From an uncultured Christensenella sp. (GTDB lineage Bacteria; Bacillota; Clostridia; Christensenellales; UBA1242), in assembly GCA_949292875.1 (NCBI GenBank), contig CASFBJ010000008.1, positions 4,547-68,546 of the forward strand: a stretch of 64,000 bases of DNA, in the 5' to 3' direction. The notes under the pieces are model-generated. The model was given only the letters and a program-made list of their open reading frames with translations, made no database searches and was not told where the DNA came from. The position numbers and the translations under genes are program-made. This document shows positions 9,963 to 62,873 of this stretch, piece after piece; position 1 is the stretch's first letter; each line of letters starts with the position of its first letter.

Positions 9963-10304
9963 TATCTATATTATGGGGAATTGTCGCACGGTTATGAAAA
10001 TTTTTGGTGTATTTAACTTAGTTTATAAAATATAATTGCATTTAGGCACACTTTGGTGGGCCTTTTTCTAGTTATAAAAGACTAAGGGATGTGGCCGTTT
10101 TATGTGAGTCGCATATCCATTGACTATATTCCTAACATTTTAACTAAGGTTACTTAGTATGCGTTTAGATTTGTATCTAAAAACAGTTTCTCATTGTCTA
10201 ATAATCAAATTGCACTTGATTTGACAAAAAATTATATTAGACGAGCATGAGACATTTTTTTGTCTAAAATGCCTTTGATTAGTAAAAATAGGAGAATGAG
10301 TAAA

Positions 10305-16900: not shown

Positions 16901-17579
16901 AGCAGAGATAACTGTTCATTCTAAGTCAGATGGTGATGTCGTTTACCTATTACCATTTGGCGTTAAGTTAAAAGTTAAAGATGGCGACACAGTAGAACCT
17001 GGAACTCCATTTACTGAAGGACCTATTAACCCTAAAGAATTGCTTAGAACAAAAGGTGTTAAAGTATTGCAAGAATATCTATTGCAAGAAGTTGTATCAG
17101 TATATAGCGGTCAATCAATAGATATCAATACAAAACATATTGAGATAGTTATTAGACAAATGGTTAAGAAGGTTAAGATTGAAAACGCTGGAGATGCTAA
17201 TTTCATTCCAGGTGAATATGTAGACATTCATGAGTACGAGAAAGAAAATCAGAGAGTGCTAATGGAAAATGGAGTACCTGCGCTTGCAAAGAAAGAAGTT
17301 TTAGGTATTATTAAAGCATCTATCAATAGTGATAGCTTCCTTGCAGCAACTTCATTCCAATACACTTCTAGTGTTCTTACAGATTCTGCGGTGAAAGGTA
17401 AAGTAGATAACTTGCTAGGACTAAAAGAAAATGTATTAATAGGTAAACTTATACCTGCTGGTACAGGTTATCCACTATACAAGAATATAAAACCTGTTCA
17501 TATAAGCAAACTTGAAAACGAAAATAAAAAAGAAAGTTATCAAGAAGATGAAATGCTTGAAGAAGAAATAGATTTCTAA
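13998..17579 (+). CDS. rpoC: DNA-directed RNA polymerase subunit beta'
   Basis: Zn-finger CRCGKYKLNRYKGVICDKCGVEV, catalytic motif in its NADFDGD region (reads HADFDGDQMPVH here), NRAPTLHKLGIQAFEP. Confidence 0.97.
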   Translation: MFELNNIDAIKISIASPEKIREWSYGEVKKAETLNYRTQKPEPDGLFCEKIFGPTQDWRCRCGKYKLNRYKGVICDKCGVEVTKKKVRRERMGHIELATPVSHIWYFKGVPSRIGVILDLKPKHLEQVLYYVCFVVTDPGDTPLQYKQILTDKELRDAQEIYGANSFKAGMGAEAIKQLLADIDLDKEIVELKKIIDTDKGQKRLKAFRKLEVVEAFKKSGNQPKWMILDVLPVLPPDLRPMVPIDGGRMVASDLNDLYRRVIVRNNRLKELIAINGPDVIIRNEKRMLQEAVDALIENGKRGKPVQNSKQKDLKSLYASIKGKHGRFRENMLGKRVDYSGRSVIVVGPELKMYQCGLPKEMALELFRPFVMKELIKYNHATNLASAKRAINACKPIVWDMLDKAIKGHPVILNRAPTLHKLGIQAFEPILVDGKAIMLHPLVCEGFHADFDGDQMPVHIPLSLEARAEAQAILLSTNNILRPSNGKSIVDPSKDMIIGVYYLTLVRPGAKGEGSIFVSEDEAIMAHATQNLDLQAQIYVRREADFEGEKVVGRVATTVGKILFNRQIPQNIGYVDRTKKENVLRYEIEQPVGKKEIANLVKDCYYALGVNETVKMIDSIKEMGFKYSTLASLTISLFDFKNNDIKDKVVGEAEENVKQIEKQYKRGLMTHTEKVDKNIEIWNEAVEKVESSMLDCMEDFNPIKMIVNSGARGNKQNLNQVAGLIGIISTTSGEKIDVPVKSNFKKGMEPIEYFIGSRSGRKVLADTAIKTKQSGYLTRRLVYVTQDVIITEEDCFKSLGESVKGMKVSKIVSEGRVIQKLSERIEGRVAVNDIINPKNNEVIVKSNEMITSSQAKLIESLGIEEVEIRSVFTCKCSRGLCAKCYGKSMTSHDLVPLGEAVGVIAAQAIGEPGTQLSMKNFAAGVVGGIDISRGLPRIEEIFEARDPKGKAYLSEVAGKISVREVDKRAEITVHSKSDGDVVYLLPFGVKLKVKDGDTVEPGTPFTEGPINPKELLRTKGVKVLQEYLLQEVVSVYSGQSIDINTKHIEIVIRQMVKKVKIENAGDANFIPGEYVDIHEYEKENQRVLMENGVPALAKKEVLGIIKASINSDSFLAATSFQYTSSVLTDSAVKGKVDNLLGLKENVLIGKLIPAGTGYPLYKNIKPVHISKLENENKKESYQEDEMLEEEIDF

Positions 17580-35754: not shown

Positions 35755-37095
35755 TTATTCATCTTCTTTTTCTATAACAAAAGTTAAAAAATTTTTTGTT
35801 AAGTCGTCGTATTTTACTAATTCGCTTACTTCTATACCTAATACAACATAAACCATATTTTCATGTGCTATTAAAGGAATGAAATCTCTTTTTCTTTGTG
35901 GTATTTTTTTATCAATAAAAAAATCTTTTAATTTCTTTTTTCCGCCACCAAATTTTACAAATATGTCGCCTTCTTGTCTATATCTTATAACGCAATTTGT
36001 AGGGAGTTTGTCATAGTCAATTATGTGTCTATATAGGTTTTTGTTTTGCAAACTTTTCTGTTTTTTTATAGTAACCGTACCAAAATTTTCAAAAACATAT
36101 TGTTCTAATTTCAAATCTATAGGTTCTAATACATTTTTTAAGATTTTGTTAGTTATGGTTATTTTGTCATAATCTTTGTATACTATAACATTGTGCGGTA
36201 AATCTATTTTACTGCCATTTTGCGCTTCTAAGGCAAATTTGTATACTATATCAAAATGTTTTTTTTCTATGTCTTTATATATTTGTAAAAGATTAAATGC
36301 TTTTTTTAATAATCTATATATTATAGAAGTATGTTCGCTAAAAACTTTTAAAGGAACATATACTTGATTATTTTTTTTCTCTAATAAGTCTAAATTAGTA
36401 TTTGATAAAATATAATTTTCATCTAATTTGCAATTATTTGAAAAGCTACATATGTTTTTTTCAAATGCAGGAAATTTTTCTTGAATAATAGGGAAGATTA
36501 CATTTCTTATATAATTTCTTGAGTATTCATTATCTAGGTTTGTTTCATCTGTCATATATGTTAAATTATTTGCGTTTATATAGCTAATAATTTCATACTT
36601 TGAAGTATGTAACAATGGTCTAATGTAGAAATCTCTTTTTTCATCCATACCACAAGCGCCTTTTAATCCGCTTCCTCTTAATATATGTAACATTACAGTT
36701 TCTGCTTGGTCTAGCATATGATGTGCTAATGCTACTTTTGTAATGATTTTATCTTCATAACATTTTGCAAAAAAATTGTATCTTAATTCTCTAGCGCCAT
36801 CTTCTATACTTAAGCCATTTTGTTTGCAATAGGAAGAAACATCTACTTGAGTACTTAGTAACTTTATTCCTTTACTTGCACAGTAATCTGTTACAAATTT
36901 TGCATCTCTTAAGCTAGTTTCTCTTAAAGTATGGTCCACATGTAATGCTATAATATCAAAATTCATTTTGTCTTTTATTTCATGCAAAAAATTTAGTAAT
37001 GCTATACTATCACTTCCACCACTAACAGCTACACCTACAATGTCGTTTTTTTGAATTAAATTATACTTTACTATAGTATTGTATACACTTTGCAT
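35755..37095 (-). CDS. tilS: tRNA(Ile)-lysidine synthase
   Basis: PP-loop VAVSGGSDSIALL; LHVDHTLR; AHHMLDQAETVMLHILRGSG. Confidence 0.87.
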   Translation of the reverse strand: MQSVYNTIVKYNLIQKNDIVGVAVSGGSDSIALLNFLHEIKDKMNFDIIALHVDHTLRETSLRDAKFVTDYCASKGIKLLSTQVDVSSYCKQNGLSIEDGARELRYNFFAKCYEDKIITKVALAHHMLDQAETVMLHILRGSGLKGACGMDEKRDFYIRPLLHTSKYEIISYINANNLTYMTDETNLDNEYSRNYIRNVIFPIIQEKFPAFEKNICSFSNNCKLDENYILSNTNLDLLEKKNNQVYVPLKVFSEHTSIIYRLLKKAFNLLQIYKDIEKKHFDIVYKFALEAQNGSKIDLPHNVIVYKDYDKITITNKILKNVLEPIDLKLEQYVFENFGTVTIKKQKSLQNKNLYRHIIDYDKLPTNCVIRYRQEGDIFVKFGGGKKKLKDFFIDKKIPQRKRDFIPLIAHENMVYVVLGIEVSELVKYDDLTKNFLTFVIEKEDE

Positions 37096-37182: not shown

Positions 37183-38916
37183 TTATTGTACAGTAACGCT
37201 TTTAGCCAGATTCCTTGGTCTATCGGGGTTAAGGTTTAAAATGTTGCAAGACTTATATGCTAACTTTTGAAAAGGTATAATACTATACAAATTTATAGGC
37301 ATATTTTTCTTTCTTTCTAACTTTATTATGTAGTCCGCAGTGTCTTTGGGAACATCTAAAGTAGTTATTAGGGCGGTTTTTCCATTTCTAGTTTTTATTT
37401 CATTTATTGCTGTAAAAATAGAATTAGCATATTTTTCTTGTGTTAAAATGGCTATACTTAAAGTGTTTTTGTCAATTATAGACAGTGTGCCGTGTTTTAA
37501 TTCTCCACAAGGATAGGAGATGGCGTTTCTATATGTAAGTTCTCTGTATTTTAAAACTCCTTCCATAGCAGACACATAATCTTCGCATTTTCCTATAAAA
37601 ATTACAGTACTAGATTTACACATTTCTTTAGCAAGTTCATCTTCTTTATTTGACTTGATTAGGTCTGTTAAAAGTTTTGCATCTATGTCTATATCTTTTT
37701 TCTTGCATAGAAAATATATAGCAAGTATAGTGCAATTATAAACTTTAGTTGAAGCAACACTAACTTCTTTTCCTGCATATATAGGCAAACAATAATTACA
37801 TATTTTACTTAATTGACTATGAGTAGTATTTGTTATACCTAATGTTTTATATCCTAAATCTTTTACTTTTAAAAGCGCTTGCAAAGTGTCGTAGGTTTCA
37901 CCGCTTTGACTAATGAAAATAAATAAAGAATTTTTGTCAGTCAAAATTTCTTGGAATAAAAACTCACTTGCAATATGGCAAGTGCAGGGAATCTTAAGTA
38001 AATTTTCAATAATGTATTTTCCAATGCATGCTGAATGATACGCTGTGCCACAAGCGATTATATGTATTTGCTTATATTCTTTTAGGTCAGGTATTTTATG
38101 AGTAGAATTTTTGTAATGAAATAGTGTATTGCATAGTGCTTGAGGGATATCATTTATTTCTTTTTCTAAAAATGAACCGAATTCACCTTTAGAACTACTA
38201 TAATCAAAATCTTTAAATTCTATGCTTTCTTTTTCTATTTGTATATTGTACATGTTAAAAAAAGTAATTTTTTGTCCATTTGCAATGAAACATTCTCCGT
38301 CATTTAATTCATAATATTCTTTTATTAAGCCTTGAAATGCTATAAGGTCACTGCTAAAAACATAACCAGCTTCCATTTTGCCTACATAAAGTGGAGATTT
38401 GTTTTTAACTCCATAAATGCATTTTTCACAGTCTTGAACTTGCGCTAGAATTGCATATGAACCTTCTAACAGACTTATAGCATCTATAAAACTAGACATA
38501 CTTACTCCGTTTATAAAAAATTGTCTATCTATAGTTTGCGCAATAATTTCACTGTCGCAATCGCTTATTAGTTTGTCCTTTAAATTAAGAGACTTTATTA
38601 AATCTTTATAATTATCTATTATCCCATTATGAACAATGCAAACTTTTCCAATATGGTGAGGGTGTGTGTTTTTTTCACATATATTTCCATGTGTCGCCCA
38701 CCTTGTGTGGCAAATTATATTTTTAGATTTTTTGCTACTTATTTTATCGTATAAAGTTTTTATGTATCCAACGCTTTTGTATACATTTAGTTTGTTTTTA
38801 TCTAATGTACTTATCCCTACAGAGTCATAACCTCTATATTCTAAAAGTTCAAGTCTTTGTAAGGCTTGTTTTAATTCGTATGAATGCTTTGAAATAATGC
38901 CAAATATACCACACAT
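37183..38916 (-). CDS. glmS: Glutamine-fructose-6-phosphate aminotransferase
   Basis: MCGIFGI N-terminus (Ntn Cys), two SIS domains, C-terminal RNLAKSVTVQ. Confidence 0.92.
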   Translation of the reverse strand: MCGIFGIISKHSYELKQALQRLELLEYRGYDSVGISTLDKNKLNVYKSVGYIKTLYDKISSKKSKNIICHTRWATHGNICEKNTHPHHIGKVCIVHNGIIDNYKDLIKSLNLKDKLISDCDSEIIAQTIDRQFFINGVSMSSFIDAISLLEGSYAILAQVQDCEKCIYGVKNKSPLYVGKMEAGYVFSSDLIAFQGLIKEYYELNDGECFIANGQKITFFNMYNIQIEKESIEFKDFDYSSSKGEFGSFLEKEINDIPQALCNTLFHYKNSTHKIPDLKEYKQIHIIACGTAYHSACIGKYIIENLLKIPCTCHIASEFLFQEILTDKNSLFIFISQSGETYDTLQALLKVKDLGYKTLGITNTTHSQLSKICNYCLPIYAGKEVSVASTKVYNCTILAIYFLCKKKDIDIDAKLLTDLIKSNKEDELAKEMCKSSTVIFIGKCEDYVSAMEGVLKYRELTYRNAISYPCGELKHGTLSIIDKNTLSIAILTQEKYANSIFTAINEIKTRNGKTALITTLDVPKDTADYIIKLERKKNMPINLYSIIPFQKLAYKSCNILNLNPDRPRNLAKSVTVQ

Positions 38917-39035: not shown

Positions 39036-40361
39036 ATGGGTAACAAGAAAGGGAATAAAGGCAAAAAGAATATAGATAACAAAAAAAATATAGTTGAGGA
39101 AAAAATTGAGCAAAAGGAACTAGAACAATCACAAAACAACTTAGAAAATGTAGATAATATTTCTAAAGAGTTAAATAAAGAAAATGAGAATGTACAACTT
39201 AAAGAAAGCAATAATTTTACTTTAAGTGAGCAGGAAGAAGATATAGTAGAACAAAAAAAGTTTGGTTTCAATAGATTTGATAGTTCTATTAGTTTAATAA
39301 TAGGAGGCATATGTGTTCCATTTGCTTTTTCTATTATCGCATTAATTGTTCTAAGTTTAGTTTCTGTTATTTCTGGAGTAGGAGCAGATAAATTATTAGA
39401 AATACCTATAGTATATACATTAGTTTCTTGTAGCGCACTCATTGGTTATGGTCTTTTTGCACTATATATGTGCAAGAAAAAAAATAAAGATAAAAAGAAT
39501 ATTTTGAAGTTACAAGATGTAGATGTAAAAACTAGAACAATTATTTTTAAAAAAGTTAATTGGAAAATGGTTCTTATTTGCGTAGTGTTGCCACTAATTG
39601 CCTTATTTTTAACAAGTTATTTTGTAAATTTAGTAACTGCTGGTTTGCAAAATATAGGTTATAGTAAGCCTAATGATTTGCCGTTCAAAATAGATAATTT
39701 TTGGAATTTTCTTTTATCCTTAATTTTCTTAAGTTCGTTACCTGCATTTGTGGAAGAGTTGCTTTTTAGAGGTATAATTTTAGGAGGACTTTTAAATTCT
39801 GCAAAAACTCATAAAGCAAGGGTTATAAGCGTATTTGTTTCCGCGCTTCTTTTTGCTCTTTGTCATCAAAGCGCATTGCAATTTGTTTATCCACTTATTA
39901 TGGGTGTAGTATTTGGCTTTATTTATATGTACACAGGAAATATATGGTATAGTATAATTGCTCATTTCACTTCAAATGCGGTAGTTTGTTTAGTAAATTT
40001 TATAAGTGAATTATCTGGTAATGTTTCAACTAGTATAGATGTAACTTGGCTTTATGCAGTTATAGCTATTTTGACTTTAGCTGTCTTTATAACTATTTTG
40101 TATTTTGTATTAAAACTTATTAGAAAAATGTGTAAAAATAGTTCCTCATTTGATTTGGATAATACAAATGTTAACCAACAAAATATAGAAAAATGTTTAG
40201 TTGAAAGTAAAGAAGATTTGATGTATACTCATATAGATGGTGTATATAACTATAGAAAAAGTATGGAAGAGAAAGATAAGCTTGCTATAATTTATGGAGC
40301 CATTACTATAGCTATACTTTTAGGACTACTTATAAATGATTTAATCACATATATAAAATAG
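39036..40361 (+). CDS. CPBP family intramembrane glutamic endopeptidase (CAAX protease-like) with a Lys-rich N-terminal region
   Basis: FVEELLFRGIILGGL, ALLFALCH and IIAHFTSN motifs in a polytopic membrane protein. Confidence 0.75.
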   Translation: MGNKKGNKGKKNIDNKKNIVEEKIEQKELEQSQNNLENVDNISKELNKENENVQLKESNNFTLSEQEEDIVEQKKFGFNRFDSSISLIIGGICVPFAFSIIALIVLSLVSVISGVGADKLLEIPIVYTLVSCSALIGYGLFALYMCKKKNKDKKNILKLQDVDVKTRTIIFKKVNWKMVLICVVLPLIALFLTSYFVNLVTAGLQNIGYSKPNDLPFKIDNFWNFLLSLIFLSSLPAFVEELLFRGIILGGLLNSAKTHKARVISVFVSALLFALCHQSALQFVYPLIMGVVFGFIYMYTGNIWYSIIAHFTSNAVVCLVNFISELSGNVSTSIDVTWLYAVIAILTLAVFITILYFVLKLIRKMCKNSSSFDLDNTNVNQQNIEKCLVESKEDLMYTHIDGVYNYRKSMEEKDKLAIIYGAITIAILLGLLINDLITYIK

Positions 40362-40370
40362 GTACAGTAT

Positions 40371-41312
40371 ATGAGAGAAAAAAATATAGATAGTAATTAT
40401 GAAGTTTTTACAATAACAGATAATGAAGTAGGTAAAAGATTAGATGTAGTTTTATCAGATGTTTTTAGTGAACATTCAAGAAGCTACATAAAGAAGCTTA
40501 TTGATGAAAATTTTGTATTTGTAAATGAAAAATGTCAAAAAGCAGGTTATAAAGTAAAGTATGGTGATATAGTATATATAGAGTTCCCTGTAGAAGAAAC
40601 TTATAGTTTGGAGGCACAAAATATTCCTTTAGATATTGTTTATCAAGATGAAGATATTGCAGTAATAAATAAAGCAAAAGGAATGGTAGTTCATCCTGCT
40701 GTTGGTAACACGGAGGGAACTTTAGTAAACGCAATTCTGTATCATATAAAAGATTTAAGCGGAATAAATGGTGAACTCCGTCCAGGAATAGTGCATAGGA
40801 TAGATAAGGATACTACAGGACTTTTAGTTATAGCAAAAAATGATATGGCTCATAGGTCATTAAGTGAGCAAATAAAAAATAAAACTTGCAAAAGAATATA
40901 TAAAGCTTTGGTCCACGGTGCGCCACCTAATAGTGAGGGTAGAGTAGTTACTTATATAGGTAGAAACCCGAAAGATAGAAAGAAAATGGCAGTTGTAGAA
41001 GAAAATGAAGGTAGACTTGCTGTGACTAATTATAAGGTTTTAAAAAAATATGCACATTTTAGTTTAGTTGAATTTTCTTTAGAAACAGGAAGAACTCATC
41101 AAATAAGAGTGCATTGTAAATATTTAAACATTCCTATTGTAGGTGATTTTACATATGGAGCACCAAAAAATAAGTTTGGAATAGAGGGTCAACTTCTTCA
41201 TGCTTGTAAACTTATTTTACAGCATCCACGCACAAATGAAATAATGACTTTTGAAGCGAAGTTGCCTAACTTTTTTCAAGATGTTATAGATAAATTAGAG
41301 AAAACAAATTAA
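40371..41312 (+). CDS. rluD: 23S rRNA pseudouridine synthase, RluA/RluD family
   Basis: S4 domain N-terminus, catalytic HRIDKDTTGLLVIAKN, GRTHQIRVH. Confidence 0.9.
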   Translation: MREKNIDSNYEVFTITDNEVGKRLDVVLSDVFSEHSRSYIKKLIDENFVFVNEKCQKAGYKVKYGDIVYIEFPVEETYSLEAQNIPLDIVYQDEDIAVINKAKGMVVHPAVGNTEGTLVNAILYHIKDLSGINGELRPGIVHRIDKDTTGLLVIAKNDMAHRSLSEQIKNKTCKRIYKALVHGAPPNSEGRVVTYIGRNPKDRKKMAVVEENEGRLAVTNYKVLKKYAHFSLVEFSLETGRTHQIRVHCKYLNIPIVGDFTYGAPKNKFGIEGQLLHACKLILQHPRTNEIMTFEAKLPNFFQDVIDKLEKTN

Positions 41313-54436: not shown

Positions 54437-54649
54437 ATGGAAGAAAAAGACATTTTGAATAGATTTGTATATCACAAACCAAAAGAAGATGATGCAATGA
54501 AATTTGTTACAATAAGACAACAGGCAAAACAATTTGCAGACATAATAAATGGGGTTGTGCCAGAAGGTAGAGAAAAAAGTTTGGCAATAACAAAACTTGA
54601 AGAAGTTGTGATGTGGGCAAATGCAGGAATAGCAAGAAGGGGGGAATAA
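54437..54649 (+). CDS. Small helical phage protein (70 aa); possible Acb2/Tad1-hairpin-like cyclic-nucleotide sponge
   Basis: RFVYHKPKEDDAMKFVTIRQQAKQFADIINGVVPEGREKSLAITKLEEVVMWANAGIARR. The F-x-YH-x-P ... REKSLA-x-TKLEE-x-MWAN-x-IA pattern is recalled from that family. Not verified. Confidence 0.4.
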   Translation: MEEKDILNRFVYHKPKEDDAMKFVTIRQQAKQFADIINGVVPEGREKSLAITKLEEVVMWANAGIARRGE

Positions 54650-56987: not shown

Positions 56988-58457
56988 ATGGAATTAGTAA
57001 AAACAGTTAGTGATTACTTACACAGAGCATTCAAAACAGACATTTCATATATAGAGTTCTTTACAAGAATAAGTGATTTCAAAGAATGGTATGAAGGTGA
57101 AACAAAATGGCATGATTACAAGATTTGGAATGGTAAGAAACGAAAGAAACAAAAACATCTTTCACTTGGTATGGCAAAAACTGCATGTGAAGACATGGCA
57201 AGTTTGCTGATGACTGAAAAGGTTGAAATTAGGTGTGCAAAAGAACCTGCAAATGCATTGTTGCAAAAAGTATTAAAAAACAACAATTTCAAAGTTATGG
57301 CAAATCAACTTGTTGAATTATCTTGTGCATTGGGAACAGGTTCTTTTGTTGTTTCAATTAAAGAAGGTTCAAATATGAACAATCTTACTGTTGATGACAT
57401 TTTGATTTCATATATTCATGGTGATTTCATTTTTCCTATAAAGTGGGATAATGGAAGAATAACAGATTGTGCCTTTGTTACTACTGGGAACAAAGATGGT
57501 GATGTTACTTATAAAGTCATGAGTTTTGTATATGATGAAAAAGCAAGAGAATACATGGAATATGTTGAAGAAGTTGATGGTGATGGCGGTGTTATAAGAA
57601 CTGGTGAAATCATTGAAGGTGTTGAACTGATTGAAGATAAAGGGCATCAATACAAAACGAGATTAAAACATTCACCATTTCAAATTATCAAACCAAACAT
57701 TGTAAACAACTTTGATAAAACAAATCCTATGGGTATGTCAATCTTTGGCAATGCAATACCTGTTCTAAAAAGCATTGATGAAATATATTCATCTTACAAA
57801 AATGAATTTAGAATGGGCAGAAAAAGAATATTTGTCAAAGCAGGGTTACAAGCAATCAGGTATGACAAAACAGATGACACCTGGATTGATTACATTGATG
57901 ACAATGAAGTTGTATATCAGCAACTTGCAGATGAGTGGGAAAACAACAAACCACCTATTTATGAAAGTAACATGACATTAAGAGTGGCAGACCATAATAG
58001 TGCTATGGAAATGCAACTTAATGTGTTTTCAAGAAAGGTTGGACTTGGTGAAAACTTTTACACATTCAACAATGGTTCAATTTCAACTGCAACACAAATA
58101 ATTAGTTCAAATTCTAGTTTATTTAGGAATATAAGAAAGCATGAATTAGTGCTTGAACCTGCACTTATTGGACTAGCAGAAGCAATTTGTGAGTATTTGA
58201 AGGTTGATCCTGGTGAAATTACTGTTGACTTTGATGACAGTATTATCATTGACACAGAAAGCGAAAAGAACCAAGCAATGCAGGAATATCAAGCAGGTTT
58301 AATTGATAAGGTTGAATATTTTGTCAAAACACAAAAGATGACAAGAAACCAAGCAAAAAAACATGTTGATGAAATGACAGCAACAGGCACAATGATGGAA
58401 GCAGAAGACATCTTGGCAGAAAAATATAGTGAAGAAATGGGAGGAATGCATGAGTAA
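56988..58457 (+). CDS. Portal protein
   Basis: 489 aa, immediately after terL. SPP1 gp6-like size and acidic C-terminus. Confidence 0.8.
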   Translation: MELVKTVSDYLHRAFKTDISYIEFFTRISDFKEWYEGETKWHDYKIWNGKKRKKQKHLSLGMAKTACEDMASLLMTEKVEIRCAKEPANALLQKVLKNNNFKVMANQLVELSCALGTGSFVVSIKEGSNMNNLTVDDILISYIHGDFIFPIKWDNGRITDCAFVTTGNKDGDVTYKVMSFVYDEKAREYMEYVEEVDGDGGVIRTGEIIEGVELIEDKGHQYKTRLKHSPFQIIKPNIVNNFDKTNPMGMSIFGNAIPVLKSIDEIYSSYKNEFRMGRKRIFVKAGLQAIRYDKTDDTWIDYIDDNEVVYQQLADEWENNKPPIYESNMTLRVADHNSAMEMQLNVFSRKVGLGENFYTFNNGSISTATQIISSNSSLFRNIRKHELVLEPALIGLAEAICEYLKVDPGEITVDFDDSIIIDTESEKNQAMQEYQAGLIDKVEYFVKTQKMTRNQAKKHVDEMTATGTMMEAEDILAEKYSEEMGGMHE

Positions 58458-59367
58458 CTTTATTGGAATGGTGTTTGCCACACTTAAAAAAGAAGGCATT
58501 GATACAAGCAAAATGGACACAAGCGAAGCAATCGCAAAATACAATGAAATTCAGGGCAGTGGTGGCGGTTCATCTACCAAAGGTGATGAAACACCAAAGA
58601 CAGAGCAAAAGACCGCTACAAAGGCAACAGATAAGAAAAATTTAGCAGTTGATGAAGGAACTACCGAGAAAGACTCGGCAGATGCAACAGTTTCCAAAAA
58701 GGAAACAGTTGAAGAAACTGGTGTAATAAGTCAGGACAAACAAAGGAATGACAGATATACAACAGGCAATCCTGACAATATTTCAAAGCAATCAAACATT
58801 GCAAACATTGGCAATGACCTTCAAAACTATAAAGGTTCAGGAAGTGCTGACTTGGTATTGCCTGGTGGCAAGTTTGTTCAAATTAGACCGCAAAAAGATG
58901 GTTCATTCCTGGTAAGAACGAGCAATGGGCAAAAATATGTTTCTTCTGTTGATGATGCGAAACAAGAAGCAGTCAATGCTTATGGTGGCAGTTCTACACA
59001 ACATGGAGCAATAAATACTGCTGAAAAAATGTCAACCGCAATGGGAATTTCACCTGATGAAGCAAAAGCATTTGTTTCAGGAAAAGGTTCATTGACAAAA
59101 GGTGGTTATGAAGGTGTAAGCAATGTCAAATCTGCACCAACTTTTGAATATAATACAACTAAAAAAGTTAGCACATGGGAAGAAGCACAGACTTATATTA
59201 AAGATATTAAACAAAAAATCAATGAACTAAACAATCAATTAAATAATGCTCCAAACAATGAAACAAAGAACAATATAAACTTACAGATAGCAAACTTAAA
59301 ATATGAACTTGCAAATTTTTATGATGAAAATGATGTAGATAGTTTGTGGTTAAAACGAAATAAGTAG
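58450..59367 (+). CDS. Hypothetical head-module protein carrying shared N-terminal module, copy 1
   Basis: MSNFIGMVFATLKKEGIDTSKMDTSEAIAKYNEI, then a Gly/Ser/Thr linker and a unique 260-aa C-terminus. ATG at 58450 follows RBS ggagga. Confidence 0.55.
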   Translation: MSNFIGMVFATLKKEGIDTSKMDTSEAIAKYNEIQGSGGGSSTKGDETPKTEQKTATKATDKKNLAVDEGTTEKDSADATVSKKETVEETGVISQDKQRNDRYTTGNPDNISKQSNIANIGNDLQNYKGSGSADLVLPGGKFVQIRPQKDGSFLVRTSNGQKYVSSVDDAKQEAVNAYGGSSTQHGAINTAEKMSTAMGISPDEAKAFVSGKGSLTKGGYEGVSNVKSAPTFEYNTTKKVSTWEEAQTYIKDIKQKINELNNQLNNAPNNETKNNINLQIANLKYELANFYDENDVDSLWLKRNK

Positions 59368-59374
59368 GTGGTAT

Positions 59375-59734
59375 ATGTCAAATTTCATAGGTTTAGTGTT
59401 TGGAACACTAAAAAAGGAAGGTATTGACACTAAAAATATGAGTGTTGATGATGCTATTGCAAAATACAATGAAATCACAAAATCATCTTCAAAGTTATTG
59501 ACATCAGGAACAACTGGAGGTAAAATACAACTACCAAAACAAGAATATGCACAAGTGGCACATGCTTTGGCAACCAAATACGCAAACAAGTCAATCAAAG
59601 CAACATCAATAAGCATTGGAAATACAATGTATATGGTAAAAAAAGTTAAACCAGGTTATTTTGAAGTTGTTGACAAGATTGACATTGAAGAATATAGAAA
59701 TTTGATTGAAATGTTGGAGGATAAAGATGATTGA
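59375..59734 (+). CDS. Hypothetical head-module protein carrying shared N-terminal module, copy 2
   Basis: MSNFIGLVFGTLKKEGIDTKNMSVDDAIAKYNEI, then an unrelated 85-aa C-terminus. Confidence 0.55.
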   Translation: MSNFIGLVFGTLKKEGIDTKNMSVDDAIAKYNEITKSSSKLLTSGTTGGKIQLPKQEYAQVAHALATKYANKSIKATSISIGNTMYMVKKVKPGYFEVVDKIDIEEYRNLIEMLEDKDD

Positions 59735-59930
59735 TGACAAAGAAATTGCACAGAAATTAAAACCTGAATTAAAAAGGTTTAATTTGACACATGAACAGAT
59801 TACTGCAATAGCAATAGCAATAAAAAAGAATCCACAACACTTGGACAAATGTGTTGAATATCTAAAAAAAGCAGATGATAAAACATCAGGTGAAGAAATA
59901 CAAACTGAAATCATTGACATCTGCTATTAA
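59727..59930 (+). CDS. Hypothetical small protein (67 aa)
   Basis: ATG at 59727 follows RBS ggagga and overlaps the upstream stop. Confidence 0.4.
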   Translation: MIDDKEIAQKLKPELKRFNLTHEQITAIAIAIKKNPQHLDKCVEYLKKADDKTSGEEIQTEIIDICY

Positions 59931-59940
59931 AAATAAACAA

Positions 59941-59970
59941 AAAGCAACTAGAACACATAGTTGCTTTTTT
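59941..59970 (+). terminator. Intrinsic terminator inside the head module
   Basis: aaagcaacta-(7 nt)-tagttgcttt hairpin plus ttt. Confidence 0.72.
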
Positions 59971-59986
59971 AATACCTGGAGGCAAG

Positions 59987-60943
59987 ATGTATAACATTAA
60001 AGAAATTGTTGCTGACCTGGAACTTGATATCAAAATTTTGATAAAACAAGCAGTTTTTAATGTGTTTAAGGCAGAAAACTTGATGAAGACAGTTACTGCA
60101 TTGATTGATAAGGAATTACAACCAGTAAAAGACAAACAGGTTAAAGACAGAGTAAAGAAAAGTTTAATTAAGTTCACAATTAAGCAATGGAAAACAATTT
60201 GCCATTCACTGCATCTTGGCGAACCATTATTGTTGATAGGTTTAGCAATACACAACCGCAAAACACCTGTTACAGACCTTCAAAAGAAGTCATTGCAGGT
60301 GGCGGTAAGCAAAAGCATAAACATGACAATAAAAACAAATGCAAATGCTATAAACAACACACTTTCAAATCTTGCAGATAGTTATCCAACAACCAAGATT
60401 GCACATCAACCATTGGACAGTCAGGTTGAGATGTGGCAAAGACATGAAGACCAGGAACAGATGGTTGACAGATTAAAACAACAAACTGACCTGGTTATTG
60501 TAAGCAGTCATGCAAACTGTTCTGCAAGATGTGCAAAATGGCAGGGTAAGGTGTTGAGTTTAAGCAACAAGTCAGGCATGACAACAGATGGCAAAACAAT
60601 TTATCCATTAAAACAGGCAACAGATGTATTTGTAACAACAAAGGCAGGCAGAACCTGGAAGAATGGATTGCTTGGGTTTAATTGCAGACATAAATTAATC
60701 CCTTACAAACCTGGAATGCGACAACCACATGTTAGCGAAGCACAAAGAAAGCATGAATATGCCATTGAATTAAAGCAAAGAGAATTTGAAAGACAAATAC
60801 GAAAATGCAAAACAGATGGCAAACTTTTGGAAGGTGCAGAAGCACAAAAACAAAGGTTAAAAGCAAAACAGTTAACACTTGAATATCAAAAGTTCTGTGT
60901 TGATAATGGCAGAGCATTCTACAAATCACGAATAGTGATATAA
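59987..60943 (+). CDS. Minor capsid / head morphogenesis protein (Mu F, SPP1 gp7 or minor-capsid-2 like)
   Basis: SSHANCSARCAKWQGKVLSL and GFNCRHKLIPY motifs. Located in the head module, downstream of the portal gene (three small ORFs intervene). Confidence 0.68.
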   Translation: MYNIKEIVADLELDIKILIKQAVFNVFKAENLMKTVTALIDKELQPVKDKQVKDRVKKSLIKFTIKQWKTICHSLHLGEPLLLIGLAIHNRKTPVTDLQKKSLQVAVSKSINMTIKTNANAINNTLSNLADSYPTTKIAHQPLDSQVEMWQRHEDQEQMVDRLKQQTDLVIVSSHANCSARCAKWQGKVLSLSNKSGMTTDGKTIYPLKQATDVFVTTKAGRTWKNGLLGFNCRHKLIPYKPGMRQPHVSEAQRKHEYAIELKQREFERQIRKCKTDGKLLEGAEAQKQRLKAKQLTLEYQKFCVDNGRAFYKSRIVI

Positions 60944-60964
60944 GCACCTGGTTGGTGCTTTTTT
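60942..60964 (+). terminator. Intrinsic terminator
   Basis: aagcacc-(5 nt)-ggtgctt hairpin plus tttt. Confidence 0.65.
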
Positions 60965-61024
60965 AATTGGTATAACCAACAGAAGTTGTTTATATAAACA
61001 AAATTATTTTTTAAGGAGGTAAAT

Positions 61025-61267
61025 ATGGACAATGTATTTCTTGAACTTGTTGAAGAAACTTTGAAGCAACATGGCATTGATGCAACAGACATGGCTGATG
61101 AAGAAAAAATCAGGCAATTTGAGCAACTTGCAAACAAAGACACAGAAGTTGCAGAAGAAGTTGTTGAAAAGGTTGCAGAAGAAGCGGAAGCAACTGGCAC
61201 AGATGAAGATCCTGATGCTGAACAACCACTACCAACTGGCACTGTCAGTCCAACAAAATTAGTGTAA
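61025..61267 (+). CDS. Acidic 80-aa protein carrying a diverged copy of the shared N-terminal module
   Basis: MDNVFLELVEETLKQHGIDATDMADEEKIRQFEQL aligns with the N-termini of the ORFs at 58450 and 59375. RBS aaggagg. Confidence 0.5.
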   Translation: MDNVFLELVEETLKQHGIDATDMADEEKIRQFEQLANKDTEVAEEVVEKVAEEAEATGTDEDPDAEQPLPTGTVSPTKLV

Positions 61268-61317: not shown

Positions 61318-61962
61318 ATGGAAGAAATTGAAAAGGTGGACACATCAACACCACAAAATGATGGAACAGATTTGGTTGACACTTCCAAAGAAGAAAAAGT
61401 GGACAATGGTTTTGACAAGTTAGAAGATGCAGATTTTGAAGAAACAAAAGATGCTGAAACAAACGAGAATGAACCTGCAAAACAAGACAAGAAGGTTGAC
61501 AAAACCTATACACAAGCAGAGTTGGAAAAAGTGTTGGAAAAAAGGTTGGCAAGAGCAACCGCACAACACAAAAAAGAACTTGAAGCACTTGAACAAAGAT
61601 ATAAAACAGGTGATTATTCGCCTGAAATAAAATCTTTACAAGAAGAATTAAAGTCAGCAAACCAAAAGAATGTTGAAATGCAAAATCAACTTGTAAGATA
61701 CGAGATTGACACTGCATTCACAAAAGCACAGGTTAAAGATGAATTTAAGGAATTTGTGGAATATAAGGTTTTGAGAATGGTTACAGAAGAAAAGAATTTT
61801 GAAAAATGCTTGAATGAATTTAAGCAACAAAAAGAAAATTCACAGTATTTTGCAGAAACCACTGGTGGAAAATCCGTTGTGCCACCAAGACCAACAAATT
61901 CAACTGCTGATGCAGAAGTGTTGGCAGGTGAAAGAAAATTGCAAAAGGCAATGGGAATCTAA
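61318..61962 (+). CDS. Capsid scaffolding protein (DUF4355-like)
   Basis: Acidic N-terminus, then YTQAELEKVLEKRLARATAQHKKELEALEQ. Located directly upstream of the major capsid gene. Confidence 0.65.
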   Translation: MEEIEKVDTSTPQNDGTDLVDTSKEEKVDNGFDKLEDADFEETKDAETNENEPAKQDKKVDKTYTQAELEKVLEKRLARATAQHKKELEALEQRYKTGDYSPEIKSLQEELKSANQKNVEMQNQLVRYEIDTAFTKAQVKDEFKEFVEYKVLRMVTEEKNFEKCLNEFKQQKENSQYFAETTGGKSVVPPRPTNSTADAEVLAGERKLQKAMGI

Positions 61963-61994: not shown

Positions 61995-62873
61995 ATGGCA
62001 AATAATATTAGTTTACACAAAGTGTATTTGAAGTCATTAGACAAAATTTATCAAAATGAGTGTCTTACATCTATATTAGACACAGAAGAAATTGACTCTA
62101 CAAGAGAAGCAAAAACATTCACTGTTGACAAAATGGAAATGGATGGTTTGAGTGATTACAGTAGAGCAAATGGTTATGTAAATGGTGATGTTACATTAAC
62201 ACAAGAAGAAAAATCACCAAACTATGACAGGGGCAAAAAGTTTTCTGTTGATGAAATGGATGATGTTGAAAGTGGTTACATTGCATTTGGAAAACTTTCA
62301 GGCGAATTTGAAAGAACCAAAGTTATTCCTGAAATTGATGCATTTAGAATTGCAAAATATGCTAAAAATGCAGGATTAACAAAATTTGGTGCTATCACAA
62401 CTCCAGAAGATGCAGTGTCAGCAGTTGAAACCGCAGAACAAGAAATGGGTGATAAAGAAGTTCCATTGGAAAACTGTGTAATGTTCGTTTCTAACTCATA
62501 CTACAACCTTTTAAGAAGGGGTGCAGTTCAAAGATTTAGCGAAGTAAACAACACAAAAGTAAATAGAAAACTTGAAGAATTTGATGACATGAAAATTGTC
62601 AAAGTTCCTGAAAAGAGATTTTACAGTGATTGTGTGCTTGGTGAAAAAGGTTACACAAATGGCGGTTCAAAACTTAACTTCTTGATTGTTGAAAAATCAG
62701 CAGTTATGCAATTCCAAAAACACAAAGCATCAAATGTTATTTCACCTGAACAAAACCAAAATGCAGATGCATACATCTTGAAATATAGAAACTATGGACT
62801 TGCAGATGTTTATGATAACAAAATTGATGGTATTTACTCACATTCTGTTGAAGAAGTGGTTGTGGAAGCATAG
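61995..62873 (+). CDS. Major capsid protein
   Basis: 292 aa. Position after the scaffold gene, strong RBS aaggag, followed by a terminator-bounded small gene. The family was not identified by motif. Confidence 0.65.
   Translation: MANNISLHKVYLKSLDKIYQNECLTSILDTEEIDSTREAKTFTVDKMEMDGLSDYSRANGYVNGDVTLTQEEKSPNYDRGKKFSVDEMDDVESGYIAFGKLSGEFERTKVIPEIDAFRIAKYAKNAGLTKFGAITTPEDAVSAVETAEQEMGDKEVPLENCVMFVSNSYYNLLRRGAVQRFSEVNNTKVNRKLEEFDDMKIVKVPEKRFYSDCVLGEKGYTNGGSKLNFLIVEKSAVMQFQKHKASNVISPEQNQNADAYILKYRNYGLADVYDNKIDGIYSHSVEEVVVEA

What the first reader, a model, noticed from the sequence alone, without database searches (positions are those of the whole stretch)
58450..61267. Three head-module proteins share a roughly 35-aa N-terminal module fused to unrelated C-termini: candidate capsid-targeting tag for packaged cargo
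The N-termini align clearly. The ORF at 58450 begins MSNFIGMVFATLKKEGIDTSKMDTSEAIAKYNEI, and the ORF at 59375 begins MSNFIGLVFGTLKKEGIDTKNMSVDDAIAKYNEI. The ORF at 61025 begins MDNVFLELVEETLKQHGIDATDMADEEKIRQFEQL, which is a more diverged copy. The nucleotide sequences of the first two differ at many synonymous positions, so the peptide is conserved by selection rather than by recent duplication. After the module the three proteins are unrelated: 270 aa with a G/S linker, 85 aa, and 45 acidic aa. The first two, plus a 67-aa ORF, form an insert between the portal gene and the MuF/gp7-like gene, and that insert ends in its own terminator (59941-59970). The third lies just before the scaffold gene. 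A shared N-terminal domain on variable C-termini is the architecture of trafficking or targeting domains. Established examples are the capsid-targeting sequences of T4 internal proteins and polymorphic MuF-associated toxins. Inference: the module docks cargo to the portal, scaffold or procapsid so that different effectors are packaged and ejected with the DNA.
Basis: partly seen in the sequence, partly recalled or inferred. Interest (0 to 1): 0.75.

Follow-up and report, generated by a model that had tools for sequence, protein, structure and literature searches.

The report
Shared address tag on phage head cargo
Three small proteins in this prophage's head-assembly gene cluster begin with the same 36-residue two-helix tag; in related uncultured gut phages the tag sits in front of more than a hundred unrelated payloads, including toxins, so it is most likely an unnamed signal that loads proteins into the virus capsid for delivery with the DNA.

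Summary
ORF A (58450-59367), ORF B (59375-59734) and ORF D (61025-61267) share a 36-aa N-terminal module and nothing else. The copies are old: A and B are 65% identical in nucleotides and differ at 13 synonymous codons.

An exhaustive profile search found the module in 187 protein clusters. In 152 of 154 strong hits it lies at residue 1. It precedes about 100 unrelated C-termini, including ADP-ribosyltransferase toxins, PBECR and Ntox50 RNases, Zeta toxin, LPD11 and LPD3.

In nearly every locus examined the gene lies in the packaging and head module. It usually sits directly after the portal gene, and there are often two or three copies per phage. Nearly identical phages carry different payloads in the same slot.

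Many members, including ORF A (aa 190-204), also carry a short motif that matches the extreme C-terminus of their own phage's scaffold protein.

No Pfam or PHROG family, source annotation or paper I found describes the module. The closest known systems are MuF polymorphic toxins, polyvalent proteins, the T4 capsid-targeting sequence and SaPI1 CpmB.

Physical packaging is untested. The binding partner is unknown. The window's own payloads have no recognisable function. I rate it a new variant of a known kind, with interest about 0.7.

The parts
56988..58457 (+). Portal gene (SPP1 Gp6-like). Its stop codon overlaps the start of ORF A.
   Evidence: PF05133 scores 81.6 bits and phrog_533 scores 305 bits. 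The overlap is read.
58450..59367 (+). ORF A, 305 aa. It consists of the N-terminal module, a disordered linker, a central domain, a scaffold-tip-like motif and a variable helical tail.
   Evidence: The family comprises 70 clusters with 5 central-segment types and 9 tail types.
58450..58557 (+). Module copy 1 (ORF A aa 1-36), a helix-loop-helix.
   Evidence: HMM score 82.9 bits. AF2 predicts helices 2-14 and 24-36 with pLDDT 74-81.
58762..58989 (+). ORF A central folded domain (aa 105-180). It is a swappable payload segment.
   Evidence: pLDDT above 90. The same segment occurs on P0032, P0069 and, behind a different N-terminus, on P0216/P0220. Foldseek found no match.
59017..59061 (+). Scaffold-tip-like motif TAEKMSTAMGISPDE (ORF A aa 190-204).
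   Evidence: It is kept in 63 of 70 family members even where the flanking segments are swapped. Its best non-self match in 303,000 aa of six-frame sequence is the last 8 residues of the window's own scaffold. Shuffle p<=0.001.
59176..59361 (+). ORF A variable C-terminal helical hairpin (aa 243-304).
   Evidence: pLDDT 85-95. The tail differs among the window, L001 and L002. There are 9 tail types.
59375..59734 (+). ORF B, 119 aa. Module copy 2 occupies aa 1-36 (59375-59482). A linker and a small alpha/beta domain (aa 50-116) follow.
   Evidence: Foldseek against the PDB gave no hit with E<0.08.
59727..59930 (+). ORF C, 67 aa. Its start overlaps the stop of B (ATGA). It is conserved after B in L001-4, L010 and L011. 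Its function is unknown; it could be a partner or an immunity-like protein.
   Evidence: No Pfam or PHROG hit.
59939..59969 (.). Terminator-like 12-bp hairpin, flanked by an A-run and a T-run, that closes the A-B-C block.
   Evidence: and the sequence.
59987..60943 (+). Short MuF / minor capsid protein 2 gene with no C-terminal extension.
   Evidence: PF06152 scores 94.5 bits over profile positions 62-365. phrog_581 also matches.
61025..61267 (+). ORF D, 80 aa. A diverged module copy 3 occupies aa 1-37 (61025-61135). An acidic, proline-ended tail follows.
   Evidence: The 76-81 aa homologues are conserved in every phage of this lineage.
61318..61962 (+). Scaffold gene. Its last 12 residues, AGERKLQKAMGI (61924-61959), form the conserved tip that the ORF A motif resembles.
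   Evidence: phrog_2303. All homologues end exactly at KAMG[IL].
61995..62873 (+). Major capsid protein gene.
   Evidence: phrog_422 scores 242 bits.

Best explanation
The 36-aa module is a helix-loop-helix with family consensus MANFIGLVYATLKNEGIDTKGMSTDEAVAKYNEL. I interpret it as an N-terminal address tag that recruits otherwise unrelated proteins into the assembling procapsid. The proteins would then be carried in the virion and released into the next host cell together with the DNA.

The phages keep one or more 'cargo slots' in the head gene block. The slots lie after the portal gene, between MuF and scaffold, or after the MCP gene. In each slot the 5' tag is constant and the 3' payload is exchanged by recombination.

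Many tagged proteins add a second short element that copies the extreme C-terminal tip of the phage's own scaffold protein. That tip is the part of a scaffold that binds the coat protein in phage 80alpha and P22. These proteins may therefore enter the procapsid the way the scaffold does.

In this prophage, A carries both the tag and the tip-like motif. B carries the tag and a small alpha/beta payload. D carries the tag and an acidic tail.

Shown here: the architecture, the distribution, the payload repertoire, the gene position, the mosaicism and the motif similarity.

Inferred: physical encapsidation, ejection, the binding partner, and what A, B and D do in the host.
For: 1. Exhaustive hmmsearch against 1.84e9 representatives found 187 clusters with E<=1e-3 and 104 with E<=1e-10. 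In 152 of 154 strong hits the module starts within the first 8 residues. Protein lengths range from 30 to 448 aa.

2. The C-termini are hypervariable. 143 of them form 104 BLAST clusters, of which 92 are singletons.

3. The Pfam-identifiable payloads are ADPrib_exo_Tox x4, ART-PolyVal x2, LPD11 x3, PBECR3 x3, PBECR2 x2, Ntox50, Zeta_toxin, MuF_C and LPD3. Examples are P0081 with ART at 113-268, P0050 with ART at 190-360 and P0130. Iyer et al. 2017 (PMC5512222) predict these domains to be virion-packaged when fused to MuF or portal. T4 Alt is a packaged ART (same paper).

4. Gene position:
- Window lineage: portal > A > B > C > MuF > D > scaffold > MCP.
- L024: portal > MuF > 3 tagged genes > scaffold > MCP.
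- L030: portal > tagged > MuF > scaffold > MCP.
- Podovirus-like lineage: portal > tagged > scaffold > MCP.
- L027, L031, L032: just after the MCP gene.
- P0113: a portal-module in-frame fusion.

5. Cassette swapping. The portals of L021 and L028 are 97% identical, but the next gene is a 124-aa tagged protein in one and a 361-aa tagged ART plus a second tagged gene in the other.

6. Selection acts on the peptide: 13 synonymous codon differences between the A and B modules.

7. Scaffold-tip motif. Reciprocal HMM searches rank scaffold C-termini and cargo motifs as each other's best non-self hits. Shuffle tests give p<=0.002 and the match is lineage-matched. hhalign of the cargo N-terminal region against the scaffold N-terminal motif gives E=2.9e-4. 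As a precedent, SaPI1 CpmB copies the C-terminal helix-and-hook of the 80alpha scaffold to bind the capsid protein (PMC5644958).

8. AF2 predicts the module as two helices that form a separate unit ahead of a disordered linker.
Against: - There is no virion proteomics or other experimental datum for any member.
- The window's own payloads (the A central domain and tail, and the B domain) match no Pfam or PHROG family and no PDB or BFVD fold. They cannot be called effectors.
- D carries only an acidic tail.
- The module is 66-75% identical between phages whose portal, scaffold and MCP show no significant BLASTP similarity. That is unexpected for docking onto a fast-evolving structural protein. 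It leaves the partner open and allows a non-structural partner such as DNA or a host factor.
- Only about 40% of members have a recognisable tip-like motif. Individual motif E-values are marginal, between 0.002 and 0.5.
- One member (P0130, L029) lies next to bacterial housekeeping genes on a short contig, with no phage genes visible.
- Weak hits to repeats in dockerin proteins show that the core GIDT..M..EE pattern is a fairly generic helix-loop-helix.
Confidence: 0.6

Rival explanations
1. The tagged proteins are assembly factors, not delivered cargo. On this view the module is a scaffold-derived oligomerisation or docking domain, and A, B and D act as auxiliary scaffolds or chaperones. They would, for example, nucleate assembly at the portal or set core composition, and would leave the procapsid with the scaffold. 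D (tag plus acidic tail) together with the scaffold gene that follows it would be a split version of the podovirus-type scaffold, which has a tag-like N-terminus, an acidic region and the tip.
For: - D sits directly upstream of the scaffold gene and is conserved in every phage of the lineage.
- Podovirus-type scaffolds start with ELSKLTGIDMF..FREVFKKYF followed by DAEEEKLEEMGI and an acidic region. This is the same order of elements as in the tagged proteins. The motif part aligns with E=2.9e-4.
- A, B and D have no effector domain.
- No prohead protease gene lies in the portal-to-MCP block.
Against: - hhalign of the module against the scaffold N-terminus is not significant (E=0.075, probability 0.75%).
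- Assembly factors are not expected to carry ART toxins, RNases or a Zeta toxin, or to have about 100 unrelated C-termini.
- Payloads differ between phages with 97% identical portals. That fits accessory cargo, not core assembly parts.
Confidence: 0.15
2. The module binds something that is not a phage head protein, such as DNA or a conserved host factor, and serves as a targeting or tethering domain for the payload inside the host cell. A DNA-binding version would resemble a HeH/SAP-like helix-extended loop-helix, as with the DNA-end-binding ejection proteins SPP1 gp7 and 80alpha gp44. Any packaging would then be secondary, through DNA binding, or absent.
For: - The module is far better conserved (66-75% identity) than any head protein between distant phages. 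That fits a universal ligand.
- The sequence pattern L.K..GID....M....EAI.KY is HeH/SAP-like in spacing (my reading).
- Similar repeats occur in non-phage secreted proteins.
- P0130 lies outside an evident phage context.
Against: - There is no Pfam hit to SAP, HeH, Rho_N or LEM, even at E<=10.
- The PDB sequence search returns only a short segment of DUF498/AAMDC.
- The strict N-terminal position, the late-operon and head-module location and the scaffold-tip motif are not explained by a host-targeting role.
- The module is acidic to neutral, which is unlike typical DNA-binding HeH motifs (read from the sequences).
Confidence: 0.12
3. The tagged proteins are polymorphic toxins used against competing bacteria and are released at lysis, not injected. 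On this view the module is a leader for export, or simply a conserved recombination handle for cassette exchange with no docking function.
For: - The toxin-type payloads and cassette swapping resemble polymorphic toxin loci.
- Small ORFs follow some members, as immunity genes would: ORF C after B, and an overlapping 81-aa ORF after P0130.
- Truncated or frameshifted module copies break at the same point in helix 2 in two unrelated phages. That is consistent with recombination at the module boundary.
Against: - The module has no signal-peptide features and is 36 aa of amphipathic helix-loop-helix.
- Synonymous divergence shows selection on the peptide, not on the DNA.
- The genes are embedded in head operons and not at prophage ends, with one possible exception.
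Confidence: 0.08

Closest known systems
MuF polymorphic toxins (Jamet et al. 2017, PMC5576092) and MuF/portal-fused effectors (Iyer et al. 2017, PMC5512222)
   Same: Both have a constant N-terminal head-associated part and a hypervariable C-terminal toxin or effector (ART, BECR-type RNases and others). Both genes lie directly downstream of the portal gene in the packaging and head module. Both are often followed by a small ORF. Both are found in a temperate phage, since the window is a prophage.
   Different: The N-terminal part here is a 36-aa helix-loop-helix, not a MuF domain of more than 100 aa. It has no hit to PF04233 or PF06152. It coexists with a separate short MuF gene in the window, and it occurs in phages with no MuF gene at all (L005, L014). 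There are several tagged paralogues per phage.
Polyvalent proteins and their 'solo' LPD/PBECR/ART-PolyVal domains (Iyer et al. 2017)
   Same: The payload repertoire is the same: LPD11, LPD3, PBECR2/3, ART-PolyVal and MuF_C. Both sit in the neighbourhood of virion genes. Both are predicted to be delivered with the DNA.
   Different: The proteins here are small (median 171 aa) and carry one payload behind a dedicated tag. They are not 2-15 domains in one giant polypeptide. The tag is not among the described LPD families in Pfam.
T4 capsid targeting sequence (CTS) of IPI, IPII, IPIII and Alt (review PMC9026906)
   Same: Both are short N-terminal peptides shared by otherwise unrelated proteins. 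In T4 the peptide directs the proteins into the prohead, from which they are injected. In T4 the payloads vary between related phages, and one packaged T4 protein (Alt) is an ART.
   Different: The CTS is about 10 aa, binds the scaffolding core and is cut off by the gp21 prohead protease. Here the tag is 36 aa and is predicted to fold. The portal-to-MCP block has no prohead protease gene, and there is no sequence similarity to the CTS.
SaPI1 CpmB / phage 80alpha scaffold C-terminal 'helix-and-hook' mimicry (Dearborn et al. 2017, PMC5644958)
   Same: In both, a non-scaffold protein carries a copy of the scaffold's C-terminal coat-binding tip. CpmB also has an N-terminal helical dimerisation domain ahead of the tip, the same order as tag then tip here.
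   Different: CpmB redirects capsid size and is not a cargo carrier. Here the tip-like motif is internal, is followed by a payload and is present in only about 40% of members. Binding to the MCP has not been shown.

Membership tests
MuF polymorphic toxins (Jamet 2017) | An N-terminal MuF domain (PF04233, PF06152, MuF3 or MuF4). | tested here: not met
   hmmscan of A, B and D, and of the isolated module at E<=10, gives no MuF hit. The window's MuF domain is on a separate gene, 59987-60943.
MuF polymorphic toxins (Jamet 2017) | The gene lies immediately downstream of the portal gene in the packaging and head module. | tested here: met
   The start of ORF A overlaps the portal stop codon. The same arrangement is seen in L001-4, L005, L014, L020-22, L028 and L030.
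MuF polymorphic toxins (Jamet 2017) | A variable C-terminal extension carrying toxin domains. | tested here: inconclusive
   This is met at family level (ART, PBECR, Ntox50, Zeta toxin). The window's own A, B and D have no recognisable toxin domain.
MuF polymorphic toxins (Jamet 2017) | A small downstream ORF (under 150 aa) as a candidate immunity gene. | tested here: inconclusive
   ORF C (67 aa) overlaps the end of B and is conserved in part of the lineage. An 81-aa ORF overlaps the end of P0130. No function is known for either.
Polyvalent proteins (Iyer 2017) | Two to fifteen conflict-related domains in one large polypeptide. | tested here: not met
   Median length is 171 aa and the maximum is 448 aa. 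There is one identifiable payload domain per protein.
Polyvalent proteins (Iyer 2017) | Contains LPD, PBECR or ART-PolyVal type domains and is encoded next to virion genes. | tested here: met
   At family level there are LPD11 x3, LPD3, PBECR2/3 x5 and ART-PolyVal x2. LPD11 scores 73.4 bits in L005. This is not met by the window's own three proteins.
T4-type capsid targeting sequence | An N-terminal propeptide of about 10 aa removed by the prohead protease at its consensus site. | tested here: not met
   The module is 36 aa and is predicted to fold. No protease family hit lies between the portal and MCP genes. Actual cleavage cannot be tested here.
T4-type capsid targeting sequence | The tag is sufficient to load foreign proteins into the prohead and have them injected. 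| not testable with these tools
   This needs tag-reporter fusions and analysis of virions.
Scaffold-tip mimics (CpmB-like) | A segment homologous to the C-terminal coat-binding tip of the cognate scaffold. | tested here: met
   ORF A TAEKMSTAMGI matches the window scaffold tip ERKLQKAMGI. Cargo TPAEQRKLxEKGI matches the podovirus-type scaffold tip LTEEEKRLKAMGI. The support is reciprocal best non-self HMM hits, shuffle p<=0.002 and hhalign E=2.9e-4. The motifs are short, so the statistical support is moderate.
Scaffold-tip mimics (CpmB-like) | The segment binds the major capsid protein in procapsids. | not testable with these tools
   This needs cryo-EM of procapsids or binding assays. No complex prediction was available.
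Any curated protein family (Pfam-A, PHROGs v4) | A significant profile match to the module. | tested here: not met
   The only hits are sub-threshold matches to DUF498 (18.9 bits against a cut-off of 33) and DeaD_dimer. There is no PHROG hit. The only name from any source is 'hypothetical protein'.

The most novel reading that the evidence does not exclude
The tag is a portable two-part 'mini-scaffold' of 65 aa or less that evolved from the phage scaffold protein. It would consist of a dimerising helix-loop-helix plus a copy of the scaffold's coat-binding tip. Cargo would enter the procapsid by occupying scaffold binding sites on the capsid protein. Tagged proteins that lack the tip (B and D) would ride in by heterodimerising through the module with tip-bearing ones (A). 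This would be a modular encapsidation code shared across unrelated sipho- and podovirus-like phages of gut Clostridia, and it could be reused to load arbitrary proteins into Gram-positive phage heads.
Probability: 0.2. Interest if true: 0.85.

Novelty: new variant of a known kind. Interest (0 to 1): 0.72.

Why it matters
If the tag does load proteins into capsids, three things follow.

First, it defines a large unannotated class of virion-delivered effectors in uncultured gut and rumen Firmicutes phages. There are at least 187 clusters with about 100 payload types. Most of these payloads are unknown and are candidate anti-defence or host-takeover proteins.

Second, it shows that phages without a MuF-toxin fusion or a T4-type protease-and-CTS system have their own solution to the same problem.

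Third, it offers a short genetic handle of 36-65 aa for packaging chosen proteins into phage heads. The tag also gives a simple sequence rule for finding cargo genes in metagenomes.

Tried and rejected
- DNA similarity of the head block to 50,697 GenBank phages found no match. tblastn of the module consensus against the same set also found none. No cultured phage is therefore available as a reference.
- Pattern scans found the module in only one of 185,579 reference genomes, a Clostridia MAG, and in a handful of IMG/VR and JGI contigs. The pattern method is insensitive for a 36-aa query.
- The nearest annotated phages by MCP (Ruminococcus phage RG-TP1 and MT835475) lack the module.
- AF2 models of A and B compared by Foldseek with the PDB, and of A also with BFVD, gave no hit with E<1e-3. 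There were only roadblock-like and helical-hairpin resemblances.
- The module profile searched against PDB sequences returned only a short DUF498/AAMDC segment (E=2.4e-4, 27 aa). I judged this a chance or convergent helix-loop-helix match.
- I rejected the idea that the module is the missing N-terminus of the window's MuF protein, whose Pfam match starts at profile position 62. There is no MuF hit, and the module occurs in MuF-less phages.
- The idea that the module is homologous to the podovirus-type scaffold N-terminus was not supported (hhalign E=0.075). I keep it only as a speculation.
- I rejected a secretion signal or T7SS-type leader on sequence features and gene context.
The word-indexed search found only 9 proteins. 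The exhaustive search was needed to see the family.

Full report
**Observation**

ORF A (58450-59367, 305 aa), ORF B (59375-59734, 119 aa) and ORF D (61025-61267, 80 aa) each start at an ATG behind a strong ribosome-binding site. They share residues 1-36. BLASTP gives A/B E=1e-15, B/D 7e-6 and A/D 2e-5, and nothing is significant after the module. An HMM of the three copies finds only these three in the six-frame translation of the window, at 80-84 bits against 6 bits for the next hit. The A and B module DNA is 65% identical, with 13 codons that differ synonymously. The copies are therefore old and the peptide is under selection.

The gene context is as claimed: TerL, SPP1-type portal, A, B, a 67-aa ORF C, a short MuF/Phage_min_cap2 gene, D, scaffold and MCP. 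In L024 and in Ruminococcus phage RG-TP1 the MuF gene directly follows the portal gene, so A-B-C does look like an insertion. A terminator-like hairpin closes the block at 59939-59969.

The first ~41 kb of the window is bacterial chromosome carrying rpoB, rpoC, tilS and other genes. The phage is therefore a prophage in a 30% G+C, Clostridia-like genome. Relatives occur as 36-38 kb stand-alone contigs.

**The module is a widespread family**

The word-indexed search found only nine proteins. The exhaustive profile search of 1.84 billion representatives found 187 clusters with E<=1e-3 and 104 with E<=1e-10. Among 154 strong hits, 152 have the module within the first eight residues. One of the other two is a gene-call extension. 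The other (P0113) is an in-frame fusion to the C-terminus of a Phage_portal_3 portal. Protein lengths run from 30 to 448 aa.

After the module the sequences are essentially unrelated. 143 C-termini fall into 104 BLAST clusters, of which 92 are singletons. Where Pfam recognises the payload, it is an ADP-ribosyltransferase toxin (ADPrib_exo_Tox x4, ART-PolyVal x2), a PBECR2/3 or Ntox50 RNase, a Zeta toxin, MuF_C, LPD11 (x3) or LPD3.

This is the domain repertoire that Iyer et al. 2017 described in phage polyvalent proteins and as fusions to MuF or portal domains. They predicted these to be packaged and injected (PMC5512222). It also parallels the MuF toxins of Jamet et al. 2017 (PMC5576092).

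No Pfam or PHROG model matches the module. The only name given by any source is 'hypothetical protein'. It is absent from 50,697 GenBank phage records. I found no paper describing it.

**Genomic position and turnover**

In every phage contig long enough to judge, the tagged genes lie in the packaging and head block.
- Window lineage (L001-4, L007, L010, L011, L018, L023): the trio A/B/D is kept in the same places.
- L024 (portal 45% identical): portal, MuF, then three tandem tagged genes (an acidic one of 101 aa, then 244 aa and 183 aa), then scaffold and MCP.
- L030 (a different terminase type): portal, tagged 448-aa protein, MuF, scaffold, MCP.
- A podovirus-like group with no MuF gene: portal, one tagged gene, scaffold, MCP (L005, L014, L020-22, L028).
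- L027, L031 and L032: the tagged gene is one to three genes after the MCP gene.
- L014 and L030: an extra copy lies upstream of the small terminase gene.

Turnover is fast. L021 and L028 have 97% identical portals, but one carries a 124-aa tagged protein and the other a 361-aa tagged ART plus a second tagged gene.

The ORF A family itself has 70 clusters at 90% identity, all in the 37-38 kb lineage. It is a mosaic of five central-segment types and nine tail types. The central domain of ORF A also occurs behind a different N-terminus (MSGKGEKGEWKTINGAHIYI...) in the head block of another phage.

There is one exception. P0130, a tagged ART, lies next to DegV, ABC-transporter and L31 genes on a 5.6-kb contig.

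**Structure**

AF2 predicts the module as helix 2/4-14, a loop, and helix 24-36, with pLDDT 74-81. A disordered linker follows.
- ORF A then has a confident central domain (aa 105-180, pLDDT above 90), a short low-confidence helical region around aa 190-210, and a C-terminal helical hairpin (aa 243-304).
- ORF B has a small alpha/beta domain at aa 50-116.

None of these has a significant Foldseek match in the PDB, and ORF A has none in BFVD. The functions of the window's own payloads therefore remain unknown.

**A second element: a copy of the scaffold tip**

Most podovirus-type members carry a motif E.TPAE.[RK][KR][LM].E.G[IV] some 5-20 residues after the module. The ORF A family instead keeps an internal TAEKMSTAMGISPDE (aa 190-204 in the window). 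It is kept even where both flanking segments have been swapped, and is present in 63 of 70 members.

These motifs resemble the extreme C-termini of the phages' own scaffold proteins. The window scaffold ends in ...AGERKLQKAMGI. Podovirus-type scaffolds end in ...LTEEEKRLKAMGIDPRE.
- In a six-frame database of 303,000 residues, the best non-self hits of each cargo-motif HMM are scaffold tips. The best non-scaffold hits of a scaffold-tip HMM are cargo motifs.
- Composition-preserving shuffles give p<=0.002, and the matches are lineage-matched. The podovirus-type cargo motif hits podovirus-type scaffolds but not the window's. The ORF A motif hits the scaffolds of the window and L001.
- hhalign of the cargo N-terminal region against the N-proximal copy of the motif in podovirus-type scaffolds gives E=2.9e-4.
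- All scaffold homologues end exactly at KAMG[IL].

Because the motifs are about 12 residues long, each single statistic is modest, but the pattern is consistent. In phage 80alpha the last 16-21 residues of the scaffold bind the capsid protein. SaPI1 CpmB copies that tip to bind the same site (PMC5644958). This gives a plausible route by which tagged proteins could enter procapsids.

**Most likely mechanism**

The module is an N-terminal address tag for incorporation into the procapsid, often reinforced by a scaffold-tip mimic. The tagged proteins would be carried in the head and released with the DNA, like T4 Alt and the internal proteins (PMC9026906) or MuF-fused effectors. The slots would be recombination hot spots where payloads are exchanged.

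Shown: the architecture, the breadth of the family, the payload types, the position, the mosaicism and the motif similarity.

Inferred: encapsidation, ejection, the partner, and the function of A, B and D. I put this explanation at about 0.6.

**What argues for caution**

- The module is 66-75% identical between phages whose portal, scaffold and MCP show no significant BLASTP similarity. A specific structural partner is therefore not obvious. The equally conserved scaffold tip does show that short interaction motifs can persist across this divergence.
- Homology of the module to the podovirus-type scaffold N-terminus is not significant.
- D, with only an acidic tail and a fixed place before the scaffold gene, may be scaffold-related rather than cargo.

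**Rival explanations**

The rivals are auxiliary assembly factors (0.15), a DNA- or host-factor-binding domain (0.12), and lysis-released polymorphic toxins with the module as a mere recombination handle (0.08).

**Comparison with known systems, and novelty**

The system works like MuF polymorphic toxins, polyvalent-protein solo domains and the T4 CTS, but it is a member of none.
- It has no MuF domain, which was tested and not met.
- It is not multi-domain.
- It has no protease-cleaved 10-aa propeptide.

The scaffold-tip copy resembles CpmB-type mimicry, used here for a different purpose. I classify it as a new variant of a known kind: an unnamed trafficking module for phage polymorphic cargo.

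It matters because it flags about 100 unknown payload families as likely virion-delivered effectors in gut and rumen phages. It also suggests a short, portable encapsidation tag. Virion proteomics and tag-reporter fusions would settle the question.

Noticed in passing
window 1-41312: The first ~41 kb is bacterial chromosome: rpoB 10260-13982, rpoC 13998-17579, tilS 35755-37095 (-), a glmS-like gene 37183-38916 (-), a CAAX protease 39036-40361 and an RluD-like pseudouridine synthase 40371-41312. Phage genes start after about 41.5 kb, so the head module belongs to a prophage. Neither an integrase nor the attachment site was located.
   Followed up: partly
window 54437-54649 (+): A 70-aa ORF just upstream of the terminase genes is an Acb2/Tad1 hairpin-domain protein (PF24729, 72.6 bits). 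This is a candidate sponge for cyclic-nucleotide immune signals. The same gene is present in L001-L004.
   Followed up: partly
L005 10001-10425; L030 2500-2776: In two unrelated phages a module ORF is truncated at the same point in helix 2 (...DEAVKS*, ...DEAVA*). The rest of the module and the payload (LPD11 in L005) continue in another frame. These could be decayed copies, assembly errors, recombination scars at the module boundary, or programmed frameshifts.
   Followed up: partly
L013 4465-6504 (P0113): A 678-aa ORF fuses a Phage_portal_3 portal in frame to the module (residues 512-544) and a 134-aa unknown C-terminus. It is seen on a single 9-kb IMG/VR contig.
   Followed up: partly
L033 3485-4477 (P0220; also P0216, P0219, P0221, P0222): Proteins that share ORF A's central domain start instead with a different conserved N-terminus (MSGKGEKGEWKTINGAHIYIEDGQSVEEAM...). 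They sit right after the large terminase gene of another phage. This may be a second, alternative head-targeting tag.
   Followed up: no
P0028, P0148 (not in the window): Dockerin-bearing secreted proteins carry 3-5 tandem repeats of LEEAGIDTSGMTDEEI that weakly hit the module profile (9-19 bits per repeat). The core of the module therefore resembles a more general helix-loop-helix repeat.
   Followed up: no
L029 3607-4682: A tagged ADP-ribosyltransferase (P0130) lies next to the bacterial genes DegV, an ABC transporter and ribosomal protein L31 in a G+C-richer contig. It is followed by an overlapping 81-aa ORF, which could be an immunity gene. This is either a prophage edge or a domesticated toxin-immunity pair.
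   Followed up: partly
window 59727-59930 (+): ORF C (67 aa) is translationally coupled to ORF B through an ATGA overlap. It is conserved after B in L001-4, L010 and L011, but is absent from the L007/L018 sub-lineage, whose B-like protein differs. It has no family match.
   Followed up: partly
window 60942-60960 and 61000-61024: A second terminator-like hairpin follows the MuF gene. D, the scaffold gene and the MCP gene may therefore form their own transcription unit, separate from portal-A-B-C and from MuF.
   Followed up: no
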